64,000 nt of DNA from a virus (Duplodnaviria > Heunggongvirae > Uroviricota > Caudoviricetes), in the IMG/VR virus record IMGVR_UViG_3300042881_003883, positions 83,930-147,929 of that record; one strand, given 5' to 3'. The notes under the pieces were generated by a model that was not told where the DNA came from, made no database searches, and saw nothing but the letters and a program-made list of their open reading frames with translations. Below, piece by piece: positions 5,045-63,051 of the stretch; the first letter of the stretch is position 1, and each line of letters opens with the position of its first letter. Made by a program: the position numbers and the translations under genes.

Positions 5045-5061
5045 GAAGAAAATAAAAAGTT

Positions 5062-11333: not shown

Positions 11334-11336
11334 ATT

Positions 11337-12628: not shown

Positions 12629-12629
12629 T

Positions 12630-16228: not shown

Positions 16229-16238
16229 AAAAATAATA

Positions 16239-31407: not shown

Positions 31408-31727
31408 TGAAAGTAGATAAATTAAATGATTTTTTTAAAGGATGGGTAGTTGGAAACTTCAACCCATCTCTTTTCAAAACGAACGATTTTGAGGTAGCTG
31501 TTAAGGAATATAAAACAGGGGATTATGAAGTAGCCCATTATCACAAAGTTGCAACTGAAATAACAATTATAACACAAGGATTGGTTCGTATGAATGGTAC
31601 TGTTTATACAAAGGGTGATGTAATTACAATCGAACCCGGTGAATCTACTGATTTTAAAGTTTTAGATAATACAACAACAACAGTTATTAAATTCCCTTGT
31701 GTAGAGGGTGATAAATATTTACTATGA
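31407..31727 (+). CDS. cupin-domain protein
   Basis: Small beta-barrel-like protein with HYH metal motif region (VAHYHKVATEITII). Confidence 0.5.
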   Translation: MKVDKLNDFFKGWVVGNFNPSLFKTNDFEVAVKEYKTGDYEVAHYHKVATEITIITQGLVRMNGTVYTKGDVITIEPGESTDFKVLDNTTTTVIKFPCVEGDKYLL

Positions 31728-33217
31728 TAAATTACGTTTACATAAAAATACCAGCATCCGATTTTGGGTTATTTGAAAATTTATTTCATGGCAAAAGAGC
31801 CAATGAATACAAAATACATTCAGCAGGACATAGTTGGAACTATCCTACTAAAATAAAAGGTTGGCAAGATTGGGATTACCCACAACAAACACCTAATATA
31901 TTTAGAGATGTAGCTACATTTAAGTTAAGTCCAAATGATGTATTTATTACAACTATTAGAAATCCATTTAATATTTTGGTAGATTATTATAAAGAAAACT
32001 GGGCTAATCTAAAGACTCATTATAATCTAGCTGATATAAATTCAGTTGATGATTTCCAAAAATTTGTGGATATCTATCTAAATAAATCTATTGTATTTCA
32101 TGCACCCGCATTTCGTAACTCAATGTTTTCACAATTAAAGGATATCAATGGTAATTGGTTATTTGATGATAATAGTATTATAATAAGGAGTGAATATATT
32201 AATGAGGATTTAGCTAAATTCTCAGAAACAATAAATTTACCAATATCGCTTGAATTCACACAACCAAAGGTTGATAACGTTATAACATATAGAGATGACC
32301 AAATTGAGAGATTAACAAAATTATGGAAATCTGACTTGGATTATTTCGGATATTCATTTAATAAATCAGAAATGAACACAAAAAAACAAACTAACAGTTT
32401 ACATAAGCCAAAGATAGCATTGTGTTTCTCTGGTGAAATAAGAGATTTAGATAGAACTAAGGAGTATTGGGGTGAATTGATTAAGAAGTATGACATTGAT
32501 GTATATGGTTCATTCTGGGACACTTATAATACTGAATGTGGTGATACTATTGAAAACTTTCATAGGATATACAATGTTAAGAAGGTGGAGGTTGAAAATT
32601 ATAATTCATTTAATGAATCTACCTTATCTATTCTAAGAATTGGTATTGAACCACCAACTTCATTATTGTATTTTTTAAGAGATTCCTGTGTGAACTTTGG
32701 TACAATGAGTATGTGGTACAAAATTTGGAGAGCAAATTTATTAACAAAGGATTTGGGTATTGATTATGATATTGTAATAAGAGCTAGAACTGATACTTAT
32801 TTTGATGATAATTTAGATATATCCATTAATGATATGTTAAATTTACCACATGGTAGGGTTAGGTTAAATAATCACGATAAATCGGAGGGTATATCGGACC
32901 TATTTGCATATGGTTCACCAAAGATGATGGATTATTATTCAACGTGCTATTTTTTCATAATGAATTATTTAACTGAAGGGTATTATTTGGTTCCACATGA
33001 GCATATGTTGCATATTCATATGAACAAAATAAACGTTCCAATTAGATTTATGGTTAATAACATAACAATCACAAGAACATCCAGAGGAACTGAGGATGAA
33101 GTATATTGTAATGGTGTTGATATAAATGAAGAGATTTTACAATCGGATTTTATGGAACTGGAACCACAAAAAGATTTATTCTACAAAGCAAATATTAAAG
33201 AAAAATTCAAAATATGA
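31724..33217 (+). CDS. two-domain protein: sulfotransferase-like N-terminal region plus C-terminal domain paralogous to the 12630..13355 product
   Basis: ITTIRNPFNILVDYY resembles the sulfotransferase 3'-PB motif RNPxD..Y; C-terminal KIALCFSG...DIDVYGSFWD...DIVIRARTD paralogy. Confidence 0.5.
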   Translation: MINYVYIKIPASDFGLFENLFHGKRANEYKIHSAGHSWNYPTKIKGWQDWDYPQQTPNIFRDVATFKLSPNDVFITTIRNPFNILVDYYKENWANLKTHYNLADINSVDDFQKFVDIYLNKSIVFHAPAFRNSMFSQLKDINGNWLFDDNSIIIRSEYINEDLAKFSETINLPISLEFTQPKVDNVITYRDDQIERLTKLWKSDLDYFGYSFNKSEMNTKKQTNSLHKPKIALCFSGEIRDLDRTKEYWGELIKKYDIDVYGSFWDTYNTECGDTIENFHRIYNVKKVEVENYNSFNESTLSILRIGIEPPTSLLYFLRDSCVNFGTMSMWYKIWRANLLTKDLGIDYDIVIRARTDTYFDDNLDISINDMLNLPHGRVRLNNHDKSEGISDLFAYGSPKMMDYYSTCYFFIMNYLTEGYYLVPHEHMLHIHMNKINVPIRFMVNNITITRTSRGTEDEVYCNGVDINEEILQSDFMELEPQKDLFYKANIKEKFKI

Positions 33218-33900
33218 AAAAGTTTATTTTTATAACCATTTCCGTAGTATTACTACCAATATTTGGATATTCTCAAACCAAATTGGACTCACTTGATTTT
33301 GATAAGTACATACATTCAATTACAGGTAGGTTTTCAACTAAATACCATTCAACCATTGATACCACCAGAGGTGATGTATTAGTAAGGACTGTAGAGTATG
33401 ATACACATGATGAAGCGACTCTAATCTATACTCAGCAAGGTGAACTAATTGAGGGTAAGTACTATCCATATAGACAACGTATATACGCAATATACCAAAT
33501 TGATGATTATTACATTGGTTTAAACATATTCTCAATACCAAATGAAGTTGATTTTTGGAATGTACTAACTGATACCAAAGTTGCGTCTGGTAAGTTTAAT
33601 TTAGATGATATAACATTTAAAGTTGATACCAACAAACTAAAGGCACTTGCCATCTATGACCTACCATATAAAGTGGGGTGTGATATAAAGATATACAAAG
33701 ATAACTTAGGGGCATTTAGAGGTAGTACCAATGAATCGGATTGTAAAGGCTCATTTAAGGGAGCAACCTACACTACAACTGAGTTTGTAATATACCAACA
33801 CGAAGTTATTAGTTGGGAGAGGGGTTGGGATGATTCTGGAACTCAAATATGGGGGCCAAAAACAGGTCCATATATCTACTCAAAAGTTGCAAATCACTAA
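33214..33900 (+). CDS. secreted protein (signal peptide)
   Basis: N-terminus MKKFIFITISVVLLPIFGYSQ, a typical Bacteroidetes signal peptide. Confidence 0.55.
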   Translation: MKKFIFITISVVLLPIFGYSQTKLDSLDFDKYIHSITGRFSTKYHSTIDTTRGDVLVRTVEYDTHDEATLIYTQQGELIEGKYYPYRQRIYAIYQIDDYYIGLNIFSIPNEVDFWNVLTDTKVASGKFNLDDITFKVDTNKLKALAIYDLPYKVGCDIKIYKDNLGAFRGSTNESDCKGSFKGATYTTTEFVIYQHEVISWERGWDDSGTQIWGPKTGPYIYSKVANH

Positions 33901-34429: not shown

Positions 34430-36547
34430 ATGAGTAAATTTAAAAAGTACGGAAATTCTTCTTATTGGTTAAAGGACTGGGAAGATGATGACATCATTGT
34501 TAATCAAATGAATGATGTGGAACGTAAATCACATGACCTTTACAAATTAGCCGCTTCTAAACGAGCTATCTCCAACTTCGTTAATATCGTTACCAACGAT
34601 TCAATTCCTGTTAAATTTAGTACACGTGGTGATTCCTATACCGATGGTAAGACTGTGGTAATTGGTTCACAAATCGTAGACCCTAAGGATTTTGATGTGG
34701 CTGTTGGATTAGCATTGCACGAAGGTTCTCACATTAAACTTTCAGATTTTAAAACATTAGGTGATATTTACAATTTGGTTCCATCTCATATTAAAGATGG
34801 GGCAATCAAAAAAGGTATTACTAATCCAATTTCAACTATCAAAGATATTTGGAATGTGGTTGAGGACCGTAGAATTGATTACTACGTTTTTACCTCCGCT
34901 CCGGGTTATAGAGATTACTATCGTTCAATGTACGATAAATACTTTAATGACCCATTAATTGATAAGGGATTAACTTCAGATGAATATACTGAATCAACAA
35001 TTGATTCTTATATGTTCCGAATCATTAACATTCACAACAAAAATACAAACCTTAACGCTTTACCGGGTTTCACCGAAATCTATAAAACAATTGGTTTAGG
35101 TACTATTAACCGATTGAAATCTACCTTAGATACATTTAATGTGGCTATGGAAGTTTTTCAAATTATTCTAAATAACTTACCATCATTATCTGATGGTGAA
35201 GGTGAGGGTACTGGTGGACAGGGTGATTCTGAAGAAAATCAAAATCAAAATGGAAATGGTAATGGTAGTTCAAATGAATCACGTGAAATGAGTGATTCTG
35301 AATTTGATGATTTAATGGATTCATTGGATGGTTCATCTCCAATGACGGGTGATATGGATAGTAAACCAACTGGTGGTTCTTCTATGGAAATTGAAATGCC
35401 TGAAGGTGTTGAGCGTGGTGAAGCAACTGAATCAACTGAAGGTGGTAAGGAATCAAATAAATTAACTCTTAGTGATAACCAAAAAAACCTCCTTAAAAAG
35501 AAAATTCAAAAGCAGAAAGAGTTTATGAGAGGTGAAATTCGTAAAAAATCTATCACTCGAACTGAAGCAAATAATGTTAACGCAATTGAGGAAAGTGGTT
35601 CAGAAATTACTTCAGTTGGTGCTGGTGTTAATGATGGTTGGGGTAACTCTCGAAAGGGTACAACTTGTATAGTAGTTAAGAAACTTACCAAATCATTATT
35701 TGAAAATCAAATGTTCCCAATGACTGATAACAATTGGTACAAACCTGAAGAGACTGGATTGATTAAAATGCATTATGAGACTGAAGTTCAAAATGGAATT
35801 CGAATTGGAACTATATTAGGAAAGAAACTTCAGGTTAGAGGTGAGGACCGTTCTACGGTGTTCAATCGCCAAAAGAATGGTAGTATTGATAAACGAATGA
35901 TTTCATCATTAGGATTTGGTAATGAAAATGTGTTCCAATATATGGAAACCGATTCTTACAAAAAAGCTAACCTACATATCTCAATTGATGCTAGTGGTTC
36001 AATGGGTGGTTCTAAATGGGTTAATACCTTAACCAATGTGGTTGCACTTTGTAAAGCAGTTGATATGATTCAAAACCTATCAATTCAGGTTTCATTCAGA
36101 ACTACACATGGTAATTCACCATATGTGGTTATGGCTTACGATTCTCGTATTGATAAGTTCTCAAAGGTAAAACAAATGTTTCCGGCACTTAGAGCTGGTG
36201 GTACTACTCCTGAGGGATTATGTTTTGAGGCAATTATGAAGAATTTCTTAGGTTCTAATAACGATATGGATTCTTACTTCCTAAACATCTCAGATGGTGA
36301 ACCTTACTTTGAAGGTGGTTCTTTCCGATATAGTGGTGAACCGGCATTCGAACACACTCGTAAAATGGTTAAACAAATCGAAGGAATGGGAATTAAAACT
36401 CTTTCTTACTTTGTAGATGAGTGGTCAAATACAACCGAACCATCTCGAGGATTTAAGAAGATGTATGGTAAGGGAGCTAAGAAAATCGATGTAACAAATG
36501 TGGCTCAAATAACTAAAACAATAAATGAGTTGTTCTTAACAAAATAA
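34430..36547 (+). CDS. CobT-like von Willebrand factor A (VWA) domain protein
   Basis: C-terminal MIDAS DASGSMGG; acidic low-complexity linker GEGEGTGGQGDSEENQNQNGNGNGSS; paired with the CobS-like AAA downstream. Confidence 0.75.
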   Translation: MSKFKKYGNSSYWLKDWEDDDIIVNQMNDVERKSHDLYKLAASKRAISNFVNIVTNDSIPVKFSTRGDSYTDGKTVVIGSQIVDPKDFDVAVGLALHEGSHIKLSDFKTLGDIYNLVPSHIKDGAIKKGITNPISTIKDIWNVVEDRRIDYYVFTSAPGYRDYYRSMYDKYFNDPLIDKGLTSDEYTESTIDSYMFRIINIHNKNTNLNALPGFTEIYKTIGLGTINRLKSTLDTFNVAMEVFQIILNNLPSLSDGEGEGTGGQGDSEENQNQNGNGNGSSNESREMSDSEFDDLMDSLDGSSPMTGDMDSKPTGGSSMEIEMPEGVERGEATESTEGGKESNKLTLSDNQKNLLKKKIQKQKEFMRGEIRKKSITRTEANNVNAIEESGSEITSVGAGVNDGWGNSRKGTTCIVVKKLTKSLFENQMFPMTDNNWYKPEETGLIKMHYETEVQNGIRIGTILGKKLQVRGEDRSTVFNRQKNGSIDKRMISSLGFGNENVFQYMETDSYKKANLHISIDASGSMGGSKWVNTLTNVVALCKAVDMIQNLSIQVSFRTTHGNSPYVVMAYDSRIDKFSKVKQMFPALRAGGTTPEGLCFEAIMKNFLGSNNDMDSYFLNISDGEPYFEGGSFRYSGEPAFEHTRKMVKQIEGMGIKTLSYFVDEWSNTTEPSRGFKKMYGKGAKKIDVTNVAQITKTINELFLTK

Positions 36548-36999: not shown

Positions 37000-38208
37000 A
37001 TGAAAGATTTAAAAATTGGATTCGTAGGAAATGAGGTTTACAAAGTAGAAGCTTTTGGTAACTCATTTAAGTTAATTGACACTAAAGGTCAAAAAGTTGG
37101 TACAATGGGTATCGGAACCGGTACTCGTAAAGATGCATTTGAGCAGGGATTGGCTCTTCAGGCATTCGTTCAAAAGAATGGTAAGAAGGTTTTCCGAAAA
37201 GTGGGAATGGAAGTTTATAATAACTTAGTTTCCCCAATGAATACCGATAATGGTGGTGTTCAATTTGAAGATAAAGGTGACCATAACGCAATCAAAGATT
37301 TCATTCACAATAGTTCAATTGATTTGAAACCAATTGAATTGGTGATGACACCTCTAAAGTGGAAATACTTAGTTCGTTCAGCTGTTAGAGCTAAAAACAT
37401 TATGATGACTGGACCTGCTGGTTGTGGTAAAACAATGGCAGCTAAAGCATTGGTTAAAGCACTTGACCGACCTGATTTCTACTTCAACTTAGGAGCAACG
37501 CAAGACCCTCGTGCTACTTTGATTGGTAATACTCACTTTGATAAAAACAAAGGAACTTTCTTCGCTGAATCGGCATTCGTTAAAGCAATTAAAACTCCAA
37601 ACGCTGTGATTCTATTAGATGAGTTGAGTAGAGCTCACCCTGATGCTTGGAACATTTTGATGACCGTTTTAGATGGTGGACAACGTTACTTACGTTTGGA
37701 TGAGGCTGAAGGTTCACCAATTGTTAAAGTGGCTGAAGGTGTTACCTTTATCGCTACCGCTAACATAGGTTCTGAATATACTTCGACTAGGGTAATCGAT
37801 AGGGCTATCTTAGACCGTTTCGTAACTATCGAAATGGATGTTCTAAATGATGAGCAGGAATTTGGATTGTTAAAGTTTATGTTCCCTGAGGTTAATGATT
37901 ATGATTTGAAAGCAATCGCTGAAATCGCTCACCACACTCGAACTCAATCGATGAGTGATTCTGGTAAAGTTACCGCTATGGTATCGACGAGAGCTAGTGT
38001 TGAAATGGCTGGATTAATTTATGATGGATTCGATTTATTCGAATCAGCTGAAATTTCAATCTTCCCATTCTTCTCTAATGATGGTGGTGTAGATTCTGAA
38101 AGAACTTATGTGAAACAACTGGTTCAAAAATATGTTAAAGATACATCAGCAGAAGCTCTTTTTACCGAACAAAAAGAAGAGTTAGTAGATGAAATCCCAA
38201 TGTTCTAA
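37000..38208 (+). CDS. CobS-like / MoxR-type AAA+ ATPase
   Basis: Walker A GPAGCGKT; Walker B ILLDELSRAHPDAWNILMTVLDGG; ~400 aa. Confidence 0.8.
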   Translation: MKDLKIGFVGNEVYKVEAFGNSFKLIDTKGQKVGTMGIGTGTRKDAFEQGLALQAFVQKNGKKVFRKVGMEVYNNLVSPMNTDNGGVQFEDKGDHNAIKDFIHNSSIDLKPIELVMTPLKWKYLVRSAVRAKNIMMTGPAGCGKTMAAKALVKALDRPDFYFNLGATQDPRATLIGNTHFDKNKGTFFAESAFVKAIKTPNAVILLDELSRAHPDAWNILMTVLDGGQRYLRLDEAEGSPIVKVAEGVTFIATANIGSEYTSTRVIDRAILDRFVTIEMDVLNDEQEFGLLKFMFPEVNDYDLKAIAEIAHHTRTQSMSDSGKVTAMVSTRASVEMAGLIYDGFDLFESAEISIFPFFSNDGGVDSERTYVKQLVQKYVKDTSAEALFTEQKEELVDEIPMF

Positions 38209-48263: not shown

Positions 48264-48808
48264 GTAAAATAGTAAATCTATTTGGAGGACCTGGTATTGG
48301 GAAATCATCCATTGCCAATGGTCTTACATATAAGTTAAAAAAGAAACACATAAGTTGTGATAATCCATATGAGTTTCCAAAAGTATTGGCATGGGATGAG
48401 AATCATTCTGCTATCAAAGACCAATTGTATGTACTTGCAAACCAACATAGGGGAATTGTTAAGAGTTATGGGAAGGTTGACTATATTATATTGGATTCAC
48501 CAATTGTATTATCATTGGTATATAAATCAGTATATAAAGGTACTGAGTACCCAGCAACGCTGTATGGTGATTCATTTGATAAAATGGTGTTAGACATTCA
48601 TAATCAATATGATACGCTTAATATCGTTCTAAAACGTTCTGAGGGTGGGTATAATGAAAAGGAAAGGTACCAATCATTGAATGAATCCAAAATGCTGGAT
48701 TTGGAGATAGAAAATACCCTAATTAAACACCATATTCCATTTATTTATGTAGATGTTAACGATGATACTTTAAAAAACATACTAAAATATTTGGATATTC
48801 CAAATTAA
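48260..48808 (+). CDS. P-loop NTPase / nucleotide kinase-like
   Basis: Walker A GGPGIGKSS; ~180 aa, dNK/dNMP-kinase-like size. Confidence 0.55.
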   Translation: MSKIVNLFGGPGIGKSSIANGLTYKLKKKHISCDNPYEFPKVLAWDENHSAIKDQLYVLANQHRGIVKSYGKVDYIILDSPIVLSLVYKSVYKGTEYPATLYGDSFDKMVLDIHNQYDTLNIVLKRSEGGYNEKERYQSLNESKMLDLEIENTLIKHHIPFIYVDVNDDTLKNILKYLDIPN

Positions 48809-48813
48809 TTTCG

Positions 48814-48821
48814 TATATTTG
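48814..48821 (+). promoter_or_regulatory. -7 promoter box TATATTTG (AATTAATTTCGTATATTTG class)
   Basis: 30 nt upstream of ATG 48851. Confidence 0.55.
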
Positions 48822-49414: not shown

Positions 49415-49825
49415 ATGAAAAAAAGAATTTACTTAGATGATGTAAGAACTCCAGTAGATAAAGAATCTTGGGTAGTTGTTAGAAACTATGAACAATTTAT
49501 TGATACAGTTACTTACATTGGATTGGAAAATATTGACTTGATTTCATTGGACCACGATTTAGGAGATACTGCAATGGCAGAGTGGCATAAGAATGTATAT
49601 CACAATTATGAATTAAACTATGATAATATTAAGGAAAAGACTGGAATGGATTGCACTAAATGGTTGGTTAATCAATGGTTGGACGGACATGCTGTTGTTG
49701 ATGTTGTAATACATTCAGCAAACGCAATTGGTTCAGCAAATATGATGGGATACATTAACAATTATAGACACGTTAGTAGATTACCACAAAATTGTGTAAG
49801 AGTACAAATAGAACATACAGTATAA
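49415..49825 (+). CDS. hypothetical protein with YLDDVRTP...SLDHDLG motif
   Basis: ORF; conserved-looking acidic motif, family not recognised. Confidence 0.5.
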   Translation: MKKRIYLDDVRTPVDKESWVVVRNYEQFIDTVTYIGLENIDLISLDHDLGDTAMAEWHKNVYHNYELNYDNIKEKTGMDCTKWLVNQWLDGHAVVDVVIHSANAIGSANMMGYINNYRHVSRLPQNCVRVQIEHTV

Positions 49826-51308: not shown

Positions 51309-52412
51309 ATGAATAAAATAGATAAACAATATCAGGATTTACTTCAAACCATTTTAGATTATGGTATTGATAAGAAAGATAGAACTGGTACTGGCACAAA
51401 GTCAATATTTGGTTATACTATCAGACACAATATGAAAGATGGATTTCCACTTCTAACAACTAAGAAGATGCCATTTAAAACTATTGTAACTGAATTACTA
51501 TGGTTTTTGAAGGGTGATACTAATATTAAGTATTTGGTTGATAATGGTTGTAACATTTGGAATGGTGATGCCTATAAAAACTACGTTGATACTGTTGATA
51601 AGATGTGGTTAAAATCTGACATTGGGGATTTAGATGATATGATTTATGACAGACTACTACTTGTTGTAGGGGATGAAATAAGACTTTTGACTCAAGAAGA
51701 ATTTATATATACAATTAAATTAGATGATGAGTTTGCTAGTAGATACGGTGAATTAGGACCAATTTATGGTAAGCAATGGAGGAAGTGGGCACATGAAGCG
51801 GGTGAGATTAACAAAGGTGGTGTAGACCAAATACAAAACCTAATCAATGACCTTAAAACAAATCCAGACTCAAGACGATTAATGGTTAATGCTTGGAATG
51901 TAGGTGAATTAGACCAAATGGTTCTTCCACCTTGTCATTATGGATTTCAAGTTTATACGAGAGAGTTGAGCCATGAAGAGAGAATAGGTGTATGTTTAGG
52001 TCAAAGACCAGAATCTAAGTTTGCAGCTCATGTTGATACAAATGAGATATTAATGAACGATTGGGGTATTCCAACTCGAGCAATCTCATTAATGTGGAAT
52101 CAACGCTCAGTAGATACATTCTTAGGTTTACCATTCAACATAGCATCTTATGGATTGTTATTAGAAATCATTGCTAAAGAAGTAAATATGATACCTGATG
52201 AATTGATTGGAAATTTAGGTGATACACATTTGTATTTAAATCACATTGAACAAGCAAAAGAACAAATTAGTAGAAAACCATTTGAGTTACCTACGCTAAA
52301 ATTCAATCCTTGTCCTATAACAGGAATAGATATAGAATACCAAAGTATTGCGCAATTTGAAATTGAAAATTATCAATCACATCCAGCAATCAAAGCACCA
52401 TTATCAAATTAA
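51309..52412 (+). CDS. thyA: thymidylate synthase (ThyA family) with ~50-60 aa insertions
   Basis: RTGTGTKSIFG, LLWFLKGDTN, GELGPIYGKQWRKW, DSRRLMVNAWN, LPPCHYGFQVY (catalytic Cys); 367 aa, longer than the usual ~265-316. Confidence 0.85.
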   Translation: MNKIDKQYQDLLQTILDYGIDKKDRTGTGTKSIFGYTIRHNMKDGFPLLTTKKMPFKTIVTELLWFLKGDTNIKYLVDNGCNIWNGDAYKNYVDTVDKMWLKSDIGDLDDMIYDRLLLVVGDEIRLLTQEEFIYTIKLDDEFASRYGELGPIYGKQWRKWAHEAGEINKGGVDQIQNLINDLKTNPDSRRLMVNAWNVGELDQMVLPPCHYGFQVYTRELSHEERIGVCLGQRPESKFAAHVDTNEILMNDWGIPTRAISLMWNQRSVDTFLGLPFNIASYGLLLEIIAKEVNMIPDELIGNLGDTHLYLNHIEQAKEQISRKPFELPTLKFNPCPITGIDIEYQSIAQFEIENYQSHPAIKAPLSN

Positions 52413-53617: not shown

Positions 53618-53788
53618 ATGAGAAAATTTTATAGAAGTAGTAAGAACAAATTCCTAAGTGGTATTTGTGGTGGTTTGGGTTACCACACTAAAGTAGACCC
53701 AATTTTATGGAGAGCGTTATTAGTTGTCTTAGGACCGGCAGCAGTAATACCATATATAGTTTTAACATTTTTAACTGAAGATAAATAA
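53618..53788 (+). CDS. PspC-domain small membrane protein
   Basis: RSSKNKFLSGICGGLGYHTKVDPILWRALLVVL matches the PspC-domain R...DK.I.GVCGGIA.Y...DP..VR consensus; not in supplied track. Confidence 0.55.
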   Translation: MRKFYRSSKNKFLSGICGGLGYHTKVDPILWRALLVVLGPAAVIPYIVLTFLTEDK

Positions 53789-53789
53789 T

Positions 53790-54302
53790 ATGTTACCTTT
53801 AAAAGAAGCAACTGCTGAAAAGCACAAATTGGCTGAAAGAATGCCATTCAACGGATTGATGTTTAGTGGTAGATTAACCGCATCTCAATATGGTGAGTAT
53901 CTTAAATCACAATTAGCAATCTTTTCAACATTGGAAAACAACTTTGAATTTCCAAATGAGGGATTAAAGAGAGTATCAGCTGTAAGTGAGGATTTGGGAT
54001 ACTTAGGTGTATCAGATGTTTCACCTGATTCAGCAACCGAATCATATATTCAATATCTAAAAGGATTAACACAAGATGAGGCAAATGCTCATATCTATCT
54101 TAACTACTTAGCAATTATGTTTGGTGGACAGATGATGAAAGAGAAAACACCCGGTCAAGGTAAAATGTATGATTTTGAAAATATGATGGAATGTGCTGGT
54201 TCAATCAGAGCTATTCAAAAAGATGAATGGGCAGATGAGGTAAATGCAGGATTTGATTTTATGATTGAAATCTTTAAAGAATTAGAAAAATGTACGATTT
54301 AG
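53790..54302 (+). CDS. heme oxygenase (compact HO family)
   Basis: LKEATAEKHKLAE vs HO-1 LKEATKEVHTQAE (proximal His); HIYLNYLAIMFGGQMMKEK vs HAYTRYLGDLSGGQVLKKI; IEIFKELEK vs IQLFEELQ. Confidence 0.8.
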   Translation: MLPLKEATAEKHKLAERMPFNGLMFSGRLTASQYGEYLKSQLAIFSTLENNFEFPNEGLKRVSAVSEDLGYLGVSDVSPDSATESYIQYLKGLTQDEANAHIYLNYLAIMFGGQMMKEKTPGQGKMYDFENMMECAGSIRAIQKDEWADEVNAGFDFMIEIFKELEKCTI

Positions 54303-54931
54303 TAGAACGTATAACATATCATAGTGAGAAGTTTAAAAACCTCATCGAATCAATCGATGGGGTTAAAGAACTCCATACTGATGATTATGGTTGGGAGAAC
54401 TACCGATACGAATCACCAATTTTCAGATTAGCTCACGTAGAGAGATACTTTGTAGGTTCACTTGCAGTTTGTCACATCACTTGTTTCCCACATAAGAACT
54501 CAAAAGCACCAATCTTTGGATTTGATGTAGTTGGTGGTACTAATAGTGGAAAGATAAGTGGAGCATTTATAGATTGTTCCCCAGTCCTTTATGATGAAGA
54601 TTGGCATAATACTGAATGGAACACCGATAGAAAGTTACCTTATTGGGCATCGGTATTTTCGGAACAATTCATAGCAGTAAGACCTACTGAAGATGAATAT
54701 GAGAAAATATTTGAAACTGCTTGGGGGGTATTTCAACGATATATTGAACAATTAAGAAGTGAAGTAGATATTACATCCGATTCAAATGAGTTGAGAATTA
54801 TTATAGAAAACCAAAACATATATTGTAGACACCAAGCTGATAATCCTCGTACATTTGGTGCATTGAAAACGGAAATTGGAGAAGAGAGGGCTACCTACTT
54901 TATGCAAAAAGTACTATTTCCAGAAATATAA
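54290..54931 (+). CDS. ferredoxin-dependent bilin reductase (FDBR; PcyA/PebS/PcyX-like)
   Basis: FRLAHVERYFVGSLAVCHITCFPHKNSKAPIFGFDVVGG matches FDBR core RRAHVE...VLHCV.FP....P.FG.D.VGG; 12 nt overlap with the heme oxygenase gene. Confidence 0.7.
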   Translation: MYDLVERITYHSEKFKNLIESIDGVKELHTDDYGWENYRYESPIFRLAHVERYFVGSLAVCHITCFPHKNSKAPIFGFDVVGGTNSGKISGAFIDCSPVLYDEDWHNTEWNTDRKLPYWASVFSEQFIAVRPTEDEYEKIFETAWGVFQRYIEQLRSEVDITSDSNELRIIIENQNIYCRHQADNPRTFGALKTEIGEERATYFMQKVLFPEI

Positions 54932-54936
54932 AAATA

Positions 54937-55251
54937 TTGAAAACCAAAAAACTATATCTTAACAACGATTCCATATTAAAATGGGTAGAATTAAATAGGG
55001 ATACAATCAACCAATTATTGTATGAGAATGTATTTGATTTCGCAAAATCTGACAAAATGTCATTTTCAATCATGCGAATCTACTCATTTGATGACAAAGA
55101 TTCAAATGGTATGGATATTGTAACTAATCTATTGATTACAAAAGAAGAGTTGTATGATACAGTTGAAAAATTGTTAAAGGCATATGAGGGTGATGAATAT
55201 TACGAAAGATGTGCAGAATTACTAAAACTTAAAAATAGTTTGGTAGATTAA
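54937..55251 (+). CDS. hypothetical protein
   Basis: ORF. Confidence 0.45.
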   Translation: MKTKKLYLNNDSILKWVELNRDTINQLLYENVFDFAKSDKMSFSIMRIYSFDDKDSNGMDIVTNLLITKEELYDTVEKLLKAYEGDEYYERCAELLKLKNSLVD

Positions 55252-55262
55252 AATATTTTTCG

Positions 55263-55270
55263 TATATTTG
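55263..55270 (+). promoter_or_regulatory. -7 promoter box TATATTTG
   Basis: TTTTCGTATATTTG, 22 nt upstream of ATG 55293. Confidence 0.55.
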
Positions 55271-55558: not shown

Positions 55559-55855
55559 ATGGCAGAAAATGTAGGAAAACCATTAGGAGATAGAGTTCTC
55601 TTAAAATTAGAAGATACTTCAGATAAAAAATCATCTGGTGGTATCATCTTAAATCAATCAACTCAAACAGTTGTGGAAGCAGTTGTAATTGCAGTTAGTG
55701 ATGGATACCCATCACAAGGTGGTGAGTGGATTAAATTATCAGTAAATGAAGGTGATAAAGTATTAATATCAAATGGAACTCCTGGTGAGAAAATTAAGTT
55801 AGGTGGGGTTAGTTATAACCTTGTTAGAGATTCGGATTTATTAATGAAATTATAA
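55559..55855 (+). CDS. groES: co-chaperonin GroES
   Basis: 98 aa; KPLGDRVLLK...SSGGIIL mobile-loop region typical of Cpn10. Confidence 0.85.
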   Translation: MAENVGKPLGDRVLLKLEDTSDKKSSGGIILNQSTQTVVEAVVIAVSDGYPSQGGEWIKLSVNEGDKVLISNGTPGEKIKLGGVSYNLVRDSDLLMKL

Positions 55856-57463
<1,608 letters not shown>

Positions 57464-57514: not shown

Positions 57515-57545
57515 CCCCAACCCCGTAAGGTTGGGGATTTTTTGT
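57515..57545 (+). terminator. rho-independent terminator after groEL
   Basis: CCCCAACC-CCGTAA-GGTTGGGG hairpin plus ATTTTTTGTG. Confidence 0.75.
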
Positions 57546-61107: not shown

Positions 61108-61335
61108 ATGAAAGCAAAATTACAATTCAATTTACCCGATGATGAACATGAATTCCAAATGGCAATTCAGGGGGCATCAATGCACTCAGTACTTTGGGAA
61201 ATGGACCAATGGTTACGAGCACAATACAAATATATGTCAGATGCTGAATATAGTGAGGATGCTTACAAAGCATATGAAACGGCTAGAAGTAAACTCAACG
61301 AATTTATGAACGATGAAAATATAAGTTTCGATTAA
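61108..61335 (+). CDS. hypothetical small protein
   Basis: ORF. Confidence 0.45.
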   Translation: MKAKLQFNLPDDEHEFQMAIQGASMHSVLWEMDQWLRAQYKYMSDAEYSEDAYKAYETARSKLNEFMNDENISFD

Positions 61336-61724
61336 TGGAAATGCAACTAATATCAACCCATCCAATTAAGAAAGCTGATTTGGGGTTTCATGCAAATCTA
61401 TTTGGTGGCAAACTTTTAGCATGGATTGATGCTGCTGGTGCCGCTATGGCAATGGAAGTATGTGATACACCCAGAATAGTGACTGTAAAAATTGATGAGT
61501 GTTTATTTAAAAGACCCGCTAAAGAAGGGCAACTTCTAAAAATATATGGAAGAGTAAAGGAGATAGGGAATACTTCTTTAACTCTAATGTTAGAAGCTAG
61601 AGCACATAATGTATATTCGGGTCAGCAAACCATAATCCTATCAACTAACATTAAATTTGTAAGGATTGATGAAAGCAACGAACCCATTCCTATTTCAGAT
61701 AGAGTTAAATTAAAATATAAATAA
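61335..61724 (+). CDS. acyl-CoA thioesterase (hotdog fold, YciA/4HBT-like)
   Basis: HANLFGGKLLAWIDAAGAAMAMEV, typical hotdog thioesterase N-terminal region. Confidence 0.7.
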   Translation: MEMQLISTHPIKKADLGFHANLFGGKLLAWIDAAGAAMAMEVCDTPRIVTVKIDECLFKRPAKEGQLLKIYGRVKEIGNTSLTLMLEARAHNVYSGQQTIILSTNIKFVRIDESNEPIPISDRVKLKYK

Positions 61725-62118: not shown

Positions 62119-63051
62119 ATGGCAAGTTATGACAGATGGGGTAATAGATTATCACCAGAACAAGAACAATTAATAGAACAAGAAAAATTAAATAAACAAT
62201 TAAAAATTAAACAAATGGTAAAGAGAATTTTAATCGGAGTAGGAGTATTTATTGGATTAGCAGTATTATCACAATCGTGTGAAAGAATTGATGCTGGGCA
62301 CGTTGGTGTAAAAGTTAATCAGTATGGTGATAACAAAGGAGTTGATGATGTAACGGCAGTTACTGGTATGGTATTTTACAATCCAATCACAACTAAGGTG
62401 TATGAGTTTCCAACATTCATTCAGCACAAAGAGTATAAGAAAACTGAAGATGTTGACAATTCATTTATTGTAAACTCAAAAGATGGTTCTGAATTTTCAG
62501 TATCACCAATTATGAACTATTCAGTACAAAGGGATAAAGTTCCGGCAATCTTCGCTAAGTATCGTAGACCATTGGAAGATATTGAAGAAGGTTTCTTAAA
62601 AACGGCAGTGTATGATGCATTCCGTTTGGCAACCAATAAATATACGGCTGATGAGTTGATTAGTAATAGAGCAATATTCGAAATTGAAGTTCGTAGATTG
62701 TTAGATGCTCAGTTATTAAAAGAGGGATTTGTTATCAATCAATTCACATCTAACTTAATATATCCTGAAACATTCAAACGTTCAATTGAAGCTAAGAACA
62801 ACGCAGTTCAATCAGCACTGAGAGCAGAGAATGAAGTTAAAACCGCAGAAGCACAGGCAAAAATCAAAGTAGCAACCGCAAATGGTAACGCTCAGGCAAT
62901 GTTAACCGCAGCAAAAGCTGAAGCTGAAGCAAATAGAATGAAGCAAGTTACATTAACACCATTGTTATTACAATTAGAGTGGATTAACAAATGGGATGGT
63001 AAGTTACCTGTTTATGGAACAGCACCTCAATTGTACAAAGGAATGAACTAA
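62119..63051 (+). CDS. SPFH/band-7 (prohibitin/HflC-like) membrane protein
   Basis: N-terminal TM, then SPFH core ...VGVKVNQYG...; coiled-coil Ala/Glu-rich C-terminus. Confidence 0.75.
   Translation: MASYDRWGNRLSPEQEQLIEQEKLNKQLKIKQMVKRILIGVGVFIGLAVLSQSCERIDAGHVGVKVNQYGDNKGVDDVTAVTGMVFYNPITTKVYEFPTFIQHKEYKKTEDVDNSFIVNSKDGSEFSVSPIMNYSVQRDKVPAIFAKYRRPLEDIEEGFLKTAVYDAFRLATNKYTADELISNRAIFEIEVRRLLDAQLLKEGFVINQFTSNLIYPETFKRSIEAKNNAVQSALRAENEVKTAEAQAKIKVATANGNAQAMLTAAKAEAEANRMKQVTLTPLLLQLEWINKWDGKLPVYGTAPQLYKGMN

What the first reader, a model, noticed from the sequence alone, without database searches (positions are those of the whole stretch)
53790..54931. Heme oxygenase plus ferredoxin-dependent bilin reductase pair in a non-cyanobacterial (Bacteroidetes-type) phage
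ORF 53790 has the HO proximal-His region (LKEATAEKHK) and the YLxxxxGGQ distal-helix motif. Overlapping it by 12 nt, ORF 54290 carries the FDBR core (RLAHVE...CHITCFP...PIFGFDVVGG). Together they would convert heme to a phytobilin such as PEB or PCB. HO/FDBR pairs (pebS, pcyX) are known from cyanophages and marine metagenomic phages. This phage's promoters and rpsU suggest a heterotrophic Bacteroidetes host with no phycobilisomes, so the bilin would serve some other role (iron release, signalling, antioxidant). A PspC-domain mini-membrane protein (53618..53788) sits immediately upstream.
Basis: partly seen in the sequence, partly recalled or inferred. Interest (0 to 1): 0.75.

Follow-up and report, generated by a model that had tools for sequence, protein, structure and literature searches.

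The report
Heme-to-bilin gene pair, Flavobacteria-type phage
A large phage that most likely infects non-photosynthetic Flavobacteria carries two overlapping genes predicted to turn heme into the blue pigment phycocyanobilin; such gene pairs are already known in phages of other non-photosynthetic bacteria, so this extends a known and still unexplained phenomenon to a new host group.

Summary
Window 53790-54302 encodes a compact (170 aa) heme oxygenase. Window 54290-54931 overlaps it by 13 nt and encodes a ferredoxin-dependent bilin reductase (FDBR). A 56-aa PspC-domain protein lies just upstream.

Both enzymes pass Pfam's curated cut-offs and give confident models with the canonical folds. The FDBR has the PcyA-type catalytic triad (Glu51/His62/Asp79), invariant in 110 relatives. 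It falls in the 'AX' clade. Its closest tested relative is phage CB_2 PcyA (35% identity), which makes phycocyanobilin, so the predicted product is PCB, not PEB.

Five independent signatures point to a Bacteroidota (Flavobacteriia) host:
- homology to Flavobacterium phage immuto
- TTG-N19-TATATTTG promoters
- near absence of Shine-Dalgarno sites
- Q-rule signal peptides
- binning with a Cryomorphaceae MAG

HemO-PcyX/PcyA cassettes in phages of non-phototrophs (SAR11, methanotrophs) were already published and tested biochemically. This is therefore a new lineage and host phylum of a known kind.

The real oddity is the heme oxygenase's distal helix. The usual Gly-Asp is Ala-Ile, a variant confined to Shine-Dalgarno-less phages. 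Its activity is inferred, not shown. The physiological role remains unknown.

The parts
48791..48821 (+). Nearest upstream Bacteroidota-type promoter (TTG at 48791-48793, 20-nt spacer, TATATTTG at 48814-48821). It probably drives the unit that contains the HO and FDBR genes.
   Evidence: TATATTTG occurs 8 times in + strand intergenic DNA against 0.20 in composition-matched shuffles (0 of 2000 shuffles reach 8), and never on the - strand. No further site of this type and no + strand terminator lies before 55263. Function is inferred from the consensus, not shown.
53618..53788 (+). 56-aa PspC-domain small membrane protein, 1 nt upstream of the HO start. A neighbour, but not a conserved partner.
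   Evidence: Pfam PF04024, E 2.2e-14. Present in relatives with 70% FDBR identity (L008-L010), replaced by SHMT at 61% (L011-L013), absent at 48% (L014).
53790..54302 (+). Compact heme oxygenase (170 aa). Proximal His12. The distal helix reads YLNYLAIMFGGQ, with Ala108-Ile109 in place of HO-1 Gly139-Asp140.
   Evidence: Pfam PF01126, 47.8 bits. AF2 pLDDT 94.8 and Foldseek TM 0.80-0.85 to solved HOs. Family alignment. 36.5% identical to the tested CB_2 vHemO. dN/dS 0.08-0.36 in close pairs.
54290..54302 (+). 13-nt overlap between the HO stop codon and the FDBR start codon (ATGTACGATTTAG), which suggests translational coupling.
   Evidence: The same overlapping HO-then-FDBR arrangement occurs in Mosig, in relatives and in 73 of 79 IMG/VR loci.
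54290..54931 (+). Ferredoxin-dependent bilin reductase of the PcyA type (213 aa). Catalytic triad Glu51/His62/Asp79. Predicted reaction: biliverdin IXalpha to phycocyanobilin.
   Evidence: Pfam PF05996, 82.5 bits. Best NCBIfam model is PcyA. Triad invariant in 110 of 110 relatives. AF2 pLDDT 94.5 and TM 0.84 to Nostoc PcyA. In the AX clade with CB_2 PcyA as nearest tested relative at 35% identity. dN/dS 0.07-0.13.
54937..55251 (+). 104-aa ORF of unknown function directly downstream. An ORF of the same length sits in this position in relatives at 70% FDBR identity.
   Evidence: no family match; 104-aa ORF after the FDBR in L008 and L009. Whether it belongs to the module is unknown.
55240..55270 (+). 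Next Bacteroidota-type promoter (TATATTTG at 55263-55270), which marks the downstream limit of the putative HO/FDBR transcription unit.
57515..57536 (+). Strong intrinsic-terminator-like hairpin after groEL. It is the first + strand terminator downstream of the pair.
33214..33900 (+). Exported CpeT/CpcT-family (DUF1001) protein, 228 aa, with a Q-rule signal peptide. A possible tetrapyrrole- or bilin-binding protein. Any link to the pair is unproven.
   Evidence: Pfam PF06206, E 9.4e-22. PDB sequence matches to CRL and CpcT. Signal peptide conserved in 21 of 21 full-length relatives. A relative (L100) has HO 10 kb downstream. However, it belongs to a broad class of exported proteins.

Best explanation
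This is a phage auxiliary-metabolic cassette of the known hemO-pcyA/pcyX kind. It is carried by a large (>200 kb) phage that is distantly related to Flavobacterium phage immuto and most likely infects Flavobacteriia (Bacteroidota).

The two genes sit in a tightly packed unit downstream of a host-sigmaA-type promoter, and their 13-nt overlap suggests translational coupling. The 170-aa heme oxygenase would open host heme to biliverdin IXalpha, releasing Fe2+ and CO. The FDBR carries the full PcyA triad (Glu51/His62/Asp79). Using host reduced ferredoxin, it would then perform the four-electron reduction of biliverdin to phycocyanobilin (PCB).

Shown here: family membership, folds, catalytic residues, cassette architecture, purifying selection, phage context and host-type signatures.

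Inferred: enzymatic activity, the PCB product and the electron donor. The product is inferred by analogy with CB_2 vPcyA and all other Glu-bearing PcyAs, in contrast to the Asp-bearing PcyX enzymes, which make PEB.

Physiological role (inferred, low certainty): the host has no phycobilisomes, so light harvesting is excluded. The Glu that matters only for the second reduction (the 18-vinyl group) is invariant in the lineage. I therefore think the finished bilin is itself selected for, as a ligand or effector, or as a non-inhibitory, harmless end product. Iron release from heme would be a concurrent benefit. I put about 0.75 on the biochemical statement and about 0.85 on the Bacteroidota host. 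No single physiological role gets more than about 0.4.
For: Families and folds.

Triad: E51/H62/D79 aligned to Synechocystis PcyA E76/H88/D105 and invariant in 110 of 110 full-length relatives. Every tested PcyA reference has Glu and every PcyX has Asp (PMC13446030 Table 2; PMC11480375).

Phylogeny: the window clade is monophyletic (196/200), lies inside the AX clade (185/200), is separate from the PcyX-like clade (198/200), and has CB_2 PcyA as nearest tested relative (35% identity, E 6e-48).

Cassette: HO lies upstream of the FDBR in 74 of 79 IMG/VR loci and overlaps or abuts it in 73. The same is true in Mosig and in relatives on contigs up to 265 kb.

Selection: dN/dS is 0.07-0.13 for the FDBR and 0.08-0.36 for the HO in close pairs.

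Phage context: all genes are on one strand. The window contains clamp loader, ligase, ThyA, GroES/EL and S21 genes. The same sequence assembles on a 270,754-bp contig, and contigs above 200 kb carry it in 44 blocks of the collection.

Host: 21 of 108 ORFs are homologous to Flavobacterium phage immuto. TTG-N19-TATATTTG promoters are enriched about 40-fold in intergenic DNA and only on the coding strand, while sigma70 sites are not enriched. Shine-Dalgarno usage is 3.0%, like immuto at 1.4% and unlike Mosig at 55.6%. The exported CpeT-like protein follows the Bacteroidetes Q-rule (PMC5837995). An HO cluster member is binned in a Cryomorphaceae MAG.
Against: No activity was measured.

The HO departs from canonical HOs at two mechanistically important distal-helix positions: HO-1 Gly139 is Ala and Asp140 is Ile. 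Mutating the conserved glycines or the Asp-centred hydrogen-bond network causes significant loss of activity in canonical enzymes (PMC5542595). The tested CB_2 vHemO also lacks the Asp (Gly-Tyr) and is active (PMC11480375), but it keeps the Gly.

The FDBR scores below NCBIfam's PcyA equivalog cut-off (95 against 206 bits) and is only 35% identical to any tested enzyme.

No ferredoxin or flavodoxin gene was found in the window, and whether Flavobacteriia ferredoxins serve an FDBR is unknown.

The host assignment rests on signatures, not on a CRISPR match or an isolate. The nearest isolated phage, immuto, lacks the cassette.

The tree is neighbour-joining with a modest reference set, and the sister relation to CB_2 has only 119/200 support.
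Confidence: 0.7

Rival explanations
1. Iron mobilisation is the whole point. The HO frees iron from host heme for phage iron enzymes such as ribonucleotide reductase and 2OG-Fe(II) oxygenases. The FDBR only removes biliverdin to relieve product inhibition, so the identity of the bilin does not matter.
For: A role in iron supply has been discussed in the literature for these cassettes (PMC11480375, section 14). 2OG-Fe(II) oxygenase genes lie near the cassette in the same contig (L001 20365 onward). In Mosig, four 2OG-Fe(II) oxygenases and a ferrochelatase lie directly upstream of the HO. The host has no known PCB-binding antenna.
Against: Bacteria that use HO for iron acquisition need no bilin reductase (established knowledge of HemO and HmuO). 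The Glu needed only for the second reduction (18-vinyl) is invariant in 110 of 110 relatives, and the FDBR is under stronger purifying selection than the HO. Both suggest the final product is constrained. Different phage lineages keep different, fixed product types, Glu or Asp.
Confidence: 0.3
2. The HO-like protein is not a true heme oxygenase. With Ala-Ile in place of Gly-Asp it could be a heme-binding or heme-sequestering protein, or a peroxidase-like protein. The FDBR would then act on biliverdin from a host HO, or on another substrate.
For: Both deviating positions are functionally important in canonical HOs (PMC5542595; PDB titles for the G139A and HmuO D136A/N/E mutants). Non-catalytic HO-like proteins exist (Plasmodium; PMC11634067 title and abstract). 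There is no NCBIfam HO match.
Against: The proximal His is conserved in 36 of 37 sequences, and the Gly-Gly-Gln of the distal helix is invariant. The fold is the complete canonical HO fold. The gene's stop overlaps the start of an intact FDBR in 73 of 79 phage loci, including all 23 Ala-Ile/Leu loci that have a full FDBR ORF. It is under purifying selection. The tested CB_2 vHemO also lacks the Asp and still makes biliverdin IXalpha (PMC11480375).
Confidence: 0.15
3. The host is not a Bacteroidota bacterium but another low-GC marine or freshwater organism, such as SAR11 or a picocyanobacterium. The cassette would then be an ordinary pelagiphage or cyanophage AMG.
For: The GC content of 32% is compatible with SAR11 and Prochlorococcus. 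The nearest deposited phage FDBR is from a Pelagibacter phage, and the nearest cellular FDBRs are cyanobacterial. No CRISPR or isolate evidence was obtainable here.
Against: Shine-Dalgarno usage is at background level (3.0%), against 55.6% in the Mosig locus. Promoters of the Bacteroidota sigmaA type are strongly enriched, and sigma70-type sites are not. The only DNA-level and most protein-level phage homology is to a Flavobacterium phage. Signal peptides follow the Q-rule. No psbA, hli or other cyanophage hallmark genes appeared in the 64-kb window annotations. The FDBR is only 23-28% identical to cyanophage and cyanobacterial PcyA.
Confidence: 0.08
4. The region is part of a bacterial genome or MAG (for example Cryomorphaceae) and not a phage, so the pair would be a cellular bilin pathway in Bacteroidota.
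For: One HO cluster member is deposited under a Cryomorphaceae MAG. No virion structural gene lies inside the 64-kb window.
Against: The scan of 185,579 species genomes found no Bacteroidota relative of the FDBR. The best hits were cyanobacterial at 30-37%. Relatives are abundant in IMG/VR viral contigs (at least 587). The window has strictly one-strand dense coding, phage replication genes and 21 homologues in a T4-like Flavobacterium phage. The MAG contig is only 5.5 kb, which is typical of mis-binned phage DNA.
Confidence: 0.03

Closest known systems
vHemO / vPcyA of the freshwater jumbo phage CB_2 (Crystal Bog; Chen et al. 2020; characterised in Nat Commun 2024, PMC11480375)
   Same: It is a large phage of a non-photosynthetic host. 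It has an HO plus an AX-clade FDBR with the PcyA-type Glu/His/Asp triad. The HO lacks the HO-1 Asp140 equivalent. The enzymes were shown to convert heme to biliverdin IXalpha and then to PCB. These are the nearest tested relatives of both window proteins: FDBR 35% identity (E 6e-48) and HO 36.5% (E 3e-30).
   Different: In CB_2 the two genes are one gene apart ('broken cassette'), and the phage also carries alaS. The predicted host is a methanotrophic alphaproteobacterium. The HO distal helix is Gly-Tyr, not Ala-Ile. Sequence identity is only about 35%. The window clade's signature motifs FRLAHVE and AIMFGGQ are absent from that paper's whole sequence set.
PhiHemO-PhiPcyX cassette of marine metagenomic phages and Pelagibacter phage Mosig (Ledermann et al. 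2016, 2018; PDB 5OWG)
   Same: The two-gene architecture is identical, with the HO stop overlapping the FDBR start (14 nt in Mosig). Both belong to the AX clade. PcyX is the best PDB sequence hit (2.7e-18). The hosts are not cyanobacteria.
   Different: PcyX has Asp where the window enzyme has Glu, and it makes PEB, not PCB (PMC13446030). Partner HOs keep the canonical Gly-Asp (20 of 20). These phages use Shine-Dalgarno sites (35.6% and 55.6% against 1.7-3%). Identity is 32-33%.
Cyanophage ho1 / pcyA / pebS / cpeT auxiliary metabolic genes
   Same: They use the same enzyme families (PF01126, PF05996, PF06206) and also occur in large myovirus-like phages. pcyA carries the Glu/His/Asp triad.
   Different: They belong to a different FDBR clade (split from the AX clade in 177-199 of 200 bootstraps) and are only 23-26% identical. 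In the cyanophages inspected (P-SSM4, P-RSM4, Sf-CH3), pcyA is not preceded by an HO. Their hosts have phycobiliproteins, which explains the function. The window's CpeT-like protein has no detectable tblastn match to any deposited phage CpeT and is exported.
Bradyrhizobium sp. ORS278 hemO-pcyA-alaS island with a PCB-binding bacteriophytochrome
   Same: It is an AX-clade PcyA with Glu in a non-cyanobacterium, where PCB serves a photoreceptor and not an antenna. This is a precedent for a signalling role.
   Different: It is cellular, not viral. Identity is 27-30%. It is linked to a phytochrome gene, and no phytochrome or GAF gene was seen in the window.
Canonical HO-1 / HmuO / cyanobacterial HO-1 heme oxygenases
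   Same: The fold is the same (TM 0.80-0.85). The proximal His and the distal Gly-Gly-Gln are shared.
   Different: The window HO is 30-60 residues shorter (170 aa). Gly139 is Ala and Asp140 is Ile. Identity is 20-24%.

Membership tests
Heme oxygenase, canonical HO-1/HmuO type (Pfam PF01126) | Sequence match above the curated family threshold | tested here: met
   47.8 bits against a cut-off of 23, E 2e-12. The match covers only profile positions 7-141 of 204.
Heme oxygenase, canonical HO-1/HmuO type (Pfam PF01126) | All-alpha HO fold over the whole protein | tested here: met
   AF2 pLDDT 94.8, pTM 0.91. Foldseek TM(query) 0.80-0.85 to 1we1, 1iw1, 1ivj and 1n3u.
Heme oxygenase, canonical HO-1/HmuO type (Pfam PF01126) | Proximal heme-ligating histidine (HO-1 His25) | tested here: met
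   His12 aligns with His25 and is present in 36 of 37 family members.
Heme oxygenase, canonical HO-1/HmuO type (Pfam PF01126) | Distal-helix Gly139/Asp140 ... Gly143 (kink plus hydrogen-bond network for O2 activation) | tested here: not met
   Gly143-Gly144-Gln145 are conserved, but Gly139 is Ala108 and Asp140 is Ile109, invariant in the clade. The tested CB_2 vHemO has Gly-Tyr. For this reason I file the protein as an HO-fold enzyme with an atypical distal pocket.
Heme oxygenase, canonical HO-1/HmuO type (Pfam PF01126) | Catalysis: heme to biliverdin IXalpha + Fe + CO | not testable with these tools
   Needs a biochemical assay.
PcyA (phycocyanobilin:ferredoxin oxidoreductase), FDBR family PF05996 | FDBR family match and alpha/beta/alpha FDBR fold | tested here: met
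   82.5 bits against 31. AF2 pLDDT 94.5. TM 0.84 to Nostoc PcyA 2g18, E 1.4e-14.
PcyA (phycocyanobilin:ferredoxin oxidoreductase), FDBR family PF05996 | Catalytic His88 and Asp105 (Synechocystis numbering) | tested here: met
   His62 and Asp79, invariant in 110 of 110 relatives.
PcyA (phycocyanobilin:ferredoxin oxidoreductase), FDBR family PF05996 | Glu76, the PcyA-specific residue required for 18-vinyl reduction | tested here: met
   Glu51, invariant in 110 of 110 relatives. Glu is present in all cyanobacterial, cyanophage, Bradyrhizobium and CB_2 PcyAs aligned. Its role is as stated in PMC10151467 and PMC13446030.
PcyA (phycocyanobilin:ferredoxin oxidoreductase), FDBR family PF05996 | NCBIfam PcyA equivalog score | tested here: not met
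   NF002760 gives 95.4 bits against a cut-off of 206. It is still by far the best FDBR model (PebB 25.4, PebA 23.5). The model is built around cyanobacterial PcyA, so this reflects divergence rather than a different family.
PcyA (phycocyanobilin:ferredoxin oxidoreductase), FDBR family PF05996 | Product is PCB (four-electron reduction of biliverdin) | not testable with these tools
   Predicted from the triad and from CB_2 vPcyA (PMC11480375). Needs HPLC or phytochrome assembly.
PcyX (phage PEB-forming FDBR) | Asp at the Glu76-equivalent position (PcyX Asp55) | tested here: not met
   The window has Glu51. PcyX 5OWG, Mosig and four other PcyX-like sequences have Asp (one has Cys). The window clade is separated from the PcyX-like clade (198/200).
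PebS / PebA / PebB | Closest sequence or structure match, and Asn at the His88-equivalent position | tested here: not met
   PebA gives E 0.25 by sequence. PebS gives TM 0.65-0.70 at 13-14% identity. The outgroups have Asn where the window has His.
Phage hemO-FDBR two-gene AMG cassette | HO directly upstream of the FDBR on the same strand with overlapping stop and start, on a viral genome | tested here: met
   13-nt overlap. The same arrangement is found in Mosig and in 73 of 79 IMG/VR loci. Phage context.
Phage of a Bacteroidota (Flavobacteriia) host | Host-type expression signals (TTG-N19-TAnnTTTG promoters, no Shine-Dalgarno, A-rich leaders), Q-rule signal peptides, and homology to a phage isolated on Flavobacterium | tested here: met
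   Q-rule specificity from PMC5837995.
Phage of a Bacteroidota (Flavobacteriia) host | Direct host link (CRISPR spacer, prophage, isolate) | not tested
The only link is a MAG-binning hint.
T-type phycobiliprotein lyase (CpcT/CpeT, PF06206), for the ORF at 33214-33900 | Family match above threshold | tested here: met
   78.2 bits against 21, covering profile positions 6-181 of 181.
T-type phycobiliprotein lyase (CpcT/CpeT, PF06206), for the ORF at 33214-33900 | Cytoplasmic protein acting on a phycobiliprotein substrate | tested here: not met
   A conserved Sec signal peptide is present. At least 98 of 149 nearest representatives are also exported or lipoproteins. No phycobiliprotein is expected in the host. 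It is therefore a family member by sequence but not a lyase in the cyanobacterial sense.

The most novel reading that the evidence does not exclude
In Flavobacteria-infecting phages, phycocyanobilin is made for a dedicated non-photosynthetic purpose. It could be a ligand for an as yet unidentified phage or host bilin sensor or regulator, or cargo for the exported CpeT-like (DUF1001) protein encoded 20 kb upstream. It would be produced by a mechanistically distinct heme oxygenase that activates oxygen without the canonical distal Gly-Asp pair. That would define a Bacteroidota-specific bilin system with no counterpart in cellular Bacteroidota genomes.
Probability: 0.15. Interest if true: 0.75.

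Novelty: new member of a known kind. Interest (0 to 1): 0.4.

Why it matters
Why phages of non-photosynthetic bacteria make light-harvesting-type bilins has been an open question since 2016. The authors of the latest study say they 'can only speculate' (PMC11480375). This finding shows that the cassette is not confined to phages of Proteobacteria.

A distinct, widespread lineage exists in phages with Bacteroidota-type expression signals. It accounts for 24 of the 80 best IMG/VR loci, lies on contigs up to about 270 kb, and occurs in Baltic, Tara Oceans and other samples. Both genes are under purifying selection, and no counterpart was found in any Bacteroidota genome.

Flavobacteria are culturable and genetically tractable, and a related phage (immuto) has been isolated. 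This lineage may therefore offer a route to an experimental host-phage system.

The heme oxygenase is also an enzymological puzzle. It lacks two distal-helix residues considered important for oxygen activation.

If the enzymes behave as predicted, this adds a host phylum and two enzyme sub-clades to a known phenomenon. It does not reveal a new kind of system.

Tried and rejected
1. Looking for the same phage among deposited genomes. Megablast found only short thyA/nrd-region matches to Flavobacterium phage immuto. A single-protein pattern scan of IMG/VR found nothing. The alignment-based scan then worked.

2. PspC as a functional partner. Rejected, because it is not conserved beyond the closest relatives.

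3. The CpeT-like protein as the cytoplasmic acceptor of the bilin. I considered this seriously after finding PF06206 at 33214-33900 and then downgraded it, for four reasons:
- It has a conserved signal peptide.
- It belongs to a broad class of exported DUF1001 proteins.
- It has only 22 close relatives against 194 or more for the FDBR.
- One relative (L102) has it without HO or FDBR within 10 kb.

4. The ORF overlapping the CpeT-like gene upstream (31724-33217) as a conserved partner. Only its C-terminal half is conserved in L100, and it has no family match. I took this no further.

5. A phage-encoded electron donor. No ferredoxin or flavodoxin was found in the window, either by tblastn with immuto's annotated 'ferredoxin' and the relatives' Flavodoxin_2 protein or by a Cys-motif scan.

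6. The sigma70 promoter scan showed no enrichment, and no tRNA genes were found.

7. A cellular origin in Bacteroidota. The species-genome scan returned only cyanobacterial PcyA at 30-37% identity. That scan uses motif patterns, so it may have missed alphaproteobacterial PcyA.

8. PebS or PcyX identity for the FDBR. Rejected on the triad and on phylogeny.

9. Literature searches linking heme oxygenase or pcyA with Flavobacterium, Bacteroidetes or jumbo phages returned nothing relevant.
Full report
OBSERVATION. The quoted peptide motifs are all present. The last two ORFs overlap by 13 nt counting the stop codon (ATG at 54290, TAG at 54300-54302), not 12. Pfam assigns them to PspC (PF04024, E 2.2e-14), heme oxygenase (PF01126, E 2e-12, 47.8 bits against a cut-off of 23) and ferredoxin-dependent bilin reductase (PF05996, E 4.5e-23, 82.5 bits against 31). 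PHROGs places the third in phrog_7278, 'ferredoxin oxidoreductase', an auxiliary-metabolic category.

THE BILIN REDUCTASE. The best solved-structure sequence matches are phage PcyX (5OWG, E 2.7e-18) and Nostoc and Synechocystis PcyA (1e-17 to 1e-14). PebA is at E 0.25. In the pairwise alignment to Synechocystis PcyA, the catalytic residues Glu76, His88 and Asp105 correspond to Glu51, His62 and Asp79 of the window protein. Those roles are described in PMC10151467 and PMC13446030.

In an alignment of 110 full-length relatives (44-100% identity), all three positions are invariant. PcyX and the Pelagibacter phage Mosig enzyme have Asp at the first position. The literature ties this position to the product. 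Glu76 is PcyA-specific and needed for 18-vinyl reduction. PcyX has Asp and makes phycoerythrobilin. The freshwater phage CB_2 enzyme lacks that Asp and was shown to be 'a real PcyA' that converts biliverdin to phycocyanobilin (PMC11480375; PMC13446030 Table 2).

An AlphaFold model built on 45 sequences is confident (pLDDT 94.5, pTM 0.91). It superposes best on Nostoc PcyA (TM 0.84, E 1.4e-14), ahead of PebA, PebB and PebS. NCBIfam ranks the PcyA equivalog model first (95.4 bits, against 25.4 or less for the PebA and PebB models), though below its cyanobacteria-tuned cut-off of 206.

I recovered the CB_2, Bradyrhizobium ORS278 and other reference sequences from the supplement of PMC11480375 and built a bootstrapped neighbour-joining tree rooted on PebS and PebA. 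It gave these supports out of 200:
- The window clade is monophyletic: 196.
- The window clade lies inside the 'AX' clade of Rockwell et al.: 185.
- The PcyX-like clade is separate: 198.
- CB_2 PcyA is sister to the window clade: 119.
CB_2 PcyA is the nearest experimentally tested enzyme (35% identity, blastp E 6e-48). Cyanobacterial and cyanophage PcyA are 23-28% identical. The FDBR is therefore a divergent AX-clade PcyA-type enzyme, and the predicted product is PCB.

THE HEME OXYGENASE. The protein is short, and Pfam matches only the first two-thirds of the profile. Even so, an AlphaFold model on 37 sequences is very confident (pLDDT 94.8, pTM 0.91). It is a complete canonical HO fold, with TM 0.80-0.85 to Synechocystis HO-1, HmuO and rat and human HO-1. 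That excludes an unrelated heme-binding fold.

His12 aligns with the proximal ligand His25 of HO-1 and is present in 36 of 37 family members. The distal-helix segment YLNYLAIMFGGQ is invariant and aligns without gaps to HO-1 YTRYLGDLSGGQ. This means Gly139 is Ala and Asp140 is Ile. In canonical HOs, mutating the conserved glycines or disrupting the Asp-centred water network causes significant loss of activity (PMC5542595). The PDB even holds the G139A and HmuO D136A/N/E mutant structures.

Two facts soften this concern. First, the experimentally active CB_2 vHemO has Gly-Tyr at these positions, so it too lacks the Asp (PMC11480375). It is the closest tested HO, at 36.5% identity. Second, the Ala-Ile/Leu form is not a one-off. 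It occurs in 24 of the 80 best IMG/VR loci. In the 23 of those with a full-length FDBR ORF, the HO stop overlaps or abuts the start of an FDBR with an intact triad. It is also under purifying selection (dN/dS 0.08-0.36 in close pairs). I conclude that it is very probably a working HO with an unusual distal pocket, but this is inference.

THE CASSETTE. HO-then-FDBR with overlapping stop and start is the published phage 'hemO-pcyX mini-cassette'. Mosig has it with a 14-nt overlap. Among the 80 best IMG/VR loci, 79 have an FDBR ORF. Of those, 74 have an HO upstream, and in 73 the two ORFs overlap or abut.

Triad types among these loci are 51 Glu, 22 Asp and 5 Gln. All 20 Asp-type loci that have an upstream HO keep the canonical Gly-Asp in that HO. 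Partners of the Glu-type enzymes vary: A-I, A-L, G-D, G-W, G-M and others.

In the window lineage the neighbourhood ThyA-(PspC)-HO-FDBR-(104-aa ORF)-...-GroES-GroEL is conserved down to 61% FDBR identity. It lies on contigs up to 265 kb from Tara Oceans and other samples. At 48% identity only the HO-FDBR pair remains. PspC is replaced by SHMT at 61% identity and is absent at 48%, so it is a neighbour and not a partner. FDBR dN/dS is 0.07-0.13 in close pairs.

GENOME AND HOST. The window has 32% GC, codes almost entirely on one strand and has no tRNA genes. It carries clamp-loader, PD-(D/E)XK nuclease, DNA ligase, ThyA, GroES/EL and ribosomal protein S21 genes and a large glycosyltransferase cluster. 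The identical FDBR occurs on 105 contigs, including one of 270,754 bp, and contigs above 200 kb carry it in 44 blocks of the collection. The genome is therefore a large, probably 'jumbo', phage.

Five independent lines point to a Bacteroidota (Flavobacteriia) host:
(i) The only DNA-level matches among 50,697 phage records are to Flavobacterium phage vB_FspM_immuto. 21 of 108 window ORFs have homologues there at 21-75% identity, partly syntenic.
(ii) TATATTTG occurs 8 times in + strand intergenic DNA, against 0.20 in composition-matched shuffles (0 of 2000 shuffles reach 8), and never on the - strand. Each site lies 17-48 nt upstream of an ORF start, and seven of the eight have a TTG about 20 nt further upstream (the eighth has TAGG). 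This is the Bacteroidota sigmaA architecture. Sigma70-type sites are not enriched.
(iii) Shine-Dalgarno cores precede 3.0% of ORFs (background 1.5%), as in immuto (1.4%) and unlike the Mosig locus (55.6%). Leader regions are 53% A.
(iv) The exported CpeT-like protein and all 21 full-length relatives have signal peptides ending in G/S/A followed by Gln. This is the Bacteroidetes-specific 'Q-rule' (PMC5837995).
(v) A member of the HO's 90% cluster is deposited in a Baltic 'Cryomorphaceae bacterium BACL29' MAG.

When the IMG/VR loci are grouped by cassette variant, the 24 Ala-Ile/Leu loci show 1.7% Shine-Dalgarno usage (background 0.9%). The other variants show 19-36%. This cassette variant as a whole therefore belongs to Bacteroidota-type phages.

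A scan of 185,579 species genomes found no Bacteroidota relative of the FDBR. The nearest cellular proteins are cyanobacterial PcyA at 30-37% identity. Immuto itself lacks HO and FDBR.

HOW IT MOST LIKELY WORKS. The pair lies in a gap-free run of genes between a Bacteroidota-type promoter at 48791-48821 and the next one at 55240-55270. No + strand terminator occurs until after groEL, at 57515. It is probably transcribed by host RNA polymerase, and its translation is probably coupled.

The HO would open heme to biliverdin IXalpha, releasing Fe2+ and CO. The PcyA-type FDBR would reduce biliverdin to PCB with electrons from reduced host ferredoxin. No ferredoxin or flavodoxin gene is in the window, although relatives carry a Flavodoxin_2-family gene 2-3 kb upstream.

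The purpose is not settled for any such phage. The literature offers iron supply, a phytochrome chromophore or a bilin-binding globin as possibilities. Here light harvesting can be excluded. The invariant Glu is needed only for the second reduction, and constraint on the FDBR is stronger than on the HO. Both suggest that the final bilin, and not merely heme destruction, is under selection. This is inference.

COMPARISON WITH WHAT IS KNOWN, AND NOVELTY. The kind of system is well known:
- cyanophage ho1, pcyA and pebS genes;
- the marine hemO-pcyX cassette (Ledermann 2016, 2018);
- Pelagibacter phage Mosig;
- large methanotroph phages (bioRxiv 10.1101/2020.02.13.942896);
- the biochemically proven CB_2 vHemO and vPcyA (PMC11480375).

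None of the papers read mentions Bacteroidetes or Flavobacteria. Targeted searches found nothing. The window clade's signature motifs are absent from the published sequence set.

Three things are new: the host phylum, a distinct FDBR sub-clade (35% identical to the nearest tested enzyme), and a compact HO sub-clade with an Ala-Ile/Leu distal helix. The architecture and the presumed chemistry are unchanged. I rate it a new member of a known kind. It is interesting to specialists but not surprising in principle.

SIDE FINDING. Window 33214-33900 encodes a CpeT/CpcT-family protein (PF06206, E 9.4e-22), which is the family of bilin-binding T-type lyases. It has no tblastn match in any deposited phage and only 22 close relatives. 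In one relative it lies 10 kb upstream of an HO gene.

It also carries a conserved signal peptide, and at least 98 of its 149 nearest representative relatives are likewise exported or lipoproteins. It therefore does not share a compartment with the cytoplasmic HO and FDBR. I record it as a possible tetrapyrrole-binding protein with an unproven link to the pair.

Noticed in passing
window 33214-33900 (+): A CpeT/CpcT-family (DUF1001, PF06206) protein with a conserved Sec signal peptide ending ...GYS|Q (Bacteroidetes Q-rule). It has no match in any deposited phage genome and only 22 close relatives. Most of the wider family's nearest representatives are also exported or lipoproteins. It could bind a tetrapyrrole or bilin outside the cytoplasm.
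   Followed up: partly
window 34430-36547 and 37000-38208 (+): A 705-aa protein with weak CobT_C/VWA matches (below cut-off), followed by a 402-aa AAA/AAA_5 (MoxR/GvpN/CobS-like) ATPase. The pair is conserved downstream of the CpeT-like gene in relative L100 (64% and 88% identity). It resembles the CobS/CobT-like chelatase pairs common in large phages.
   Followed up: partly
window 2490, 27220, 34381, 36614, 48814, 55263, 60238, 61749 (+): Eight copies of a near-identical promoter-like element (TTG, about 19-20 nt, TATATTTG), each 17-48 nt upstream of an ORF start. Several are followed by a conserved 'AGTATAAGATT' stretch. They look like host-sigmaA (early) promoters of a Bacteroidota phage.
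   Followed up: partly
   Followed up: partly
window 3653-17477 (+): A large cluster of glycosyltransferases, nucleotide-sugar epimerases, an aminotransferase, an acetyltransferase and a methyltransferase, partly syntenic with the glycosylation cluster of Flavobacterium phage immuto (36-46% identity). It may modify host surface glycans or virion proteins.
   Followed up: no
L102 13923-14927 (relative of the CpeT-like gene's phage): A related phage contig encodes a glutamyl-tRNA reductase (HemA; GlutR_N + Shikimate_DH). This is the first enzyme of the C5 tetrapyrrole pathway used by Bacteroidota, and a possible counterpart of the viral AlaS (Shemin pathway) reported for phages of Proteobacteria.
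   Followed up: no
L008 3558-4611 and L010 3374-4175 (relatives); window 51309-52412: The thymidylate synthase gene just upstream of the cassette is intact in the window (367 aa). In two relatives it is called as two separate ThyA fragments with a gap between them. This could be an intron or other insertion (as in T4 td), or an assembly or frameshift artefact.
   Followed up: no
L008-L013, 2-3 kb upstream of HO: Relatives carry a Flavodoxin_2-family (PF02525, NAD(P)H:quinone or FMN reductase type) gene close to ThyA-HO-FDBR. The window has no homologue. It could be relevant to electron supply.
   Followed up: partly
window 55559-57463 (+), terminator 57515-57536: Phage-encoded GroES and GroEL (49% identical to immuto GroEL), followed by the strongest intrinsic-terminator-like hairpin in the region. 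This pair is the conserved downstream landmark of the cassette.
   Followed up: partly
window 27245-27715; 49415-49825; 61335-61724; 62119-63051 (+): Other auxiliary-looking genes: an APS kinase, a cREC_REC receiver-like domain protein in the same putative transcription unit as the pair, a 4HBT thioesterase (75% identical to immuto gp221) and a Band_7/SPFH protein.
   Followed up: no
IMG/VR loci L144-L148: Five viral FDBRs have Gln at the Glu76-equivalent position (Gln/His/Asp). In four of them the partner HO has Gly-Trp or Gly-Tyr in the distal helix; the fifth (L144) has no upstream HO. The E76Q mutant of PcyA is known only as a laboratory variant (PDB 3i95), so the product of these natural Gln enzymes is unclear.
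   Followed up: no
JGI sample ids 3300042460 / 3300042319: The metagenome ids that carry the exact window sequence fall within the number range of Lake Mendota time-series samples named in unrelated MAG titles (3300042289, 3300042382). The 96%-identical HO occurs in a Baltic Sea MAG. The phage may therefore be a freshwater or brackish one. This is inferred from id proximity only.
   Followed up: no
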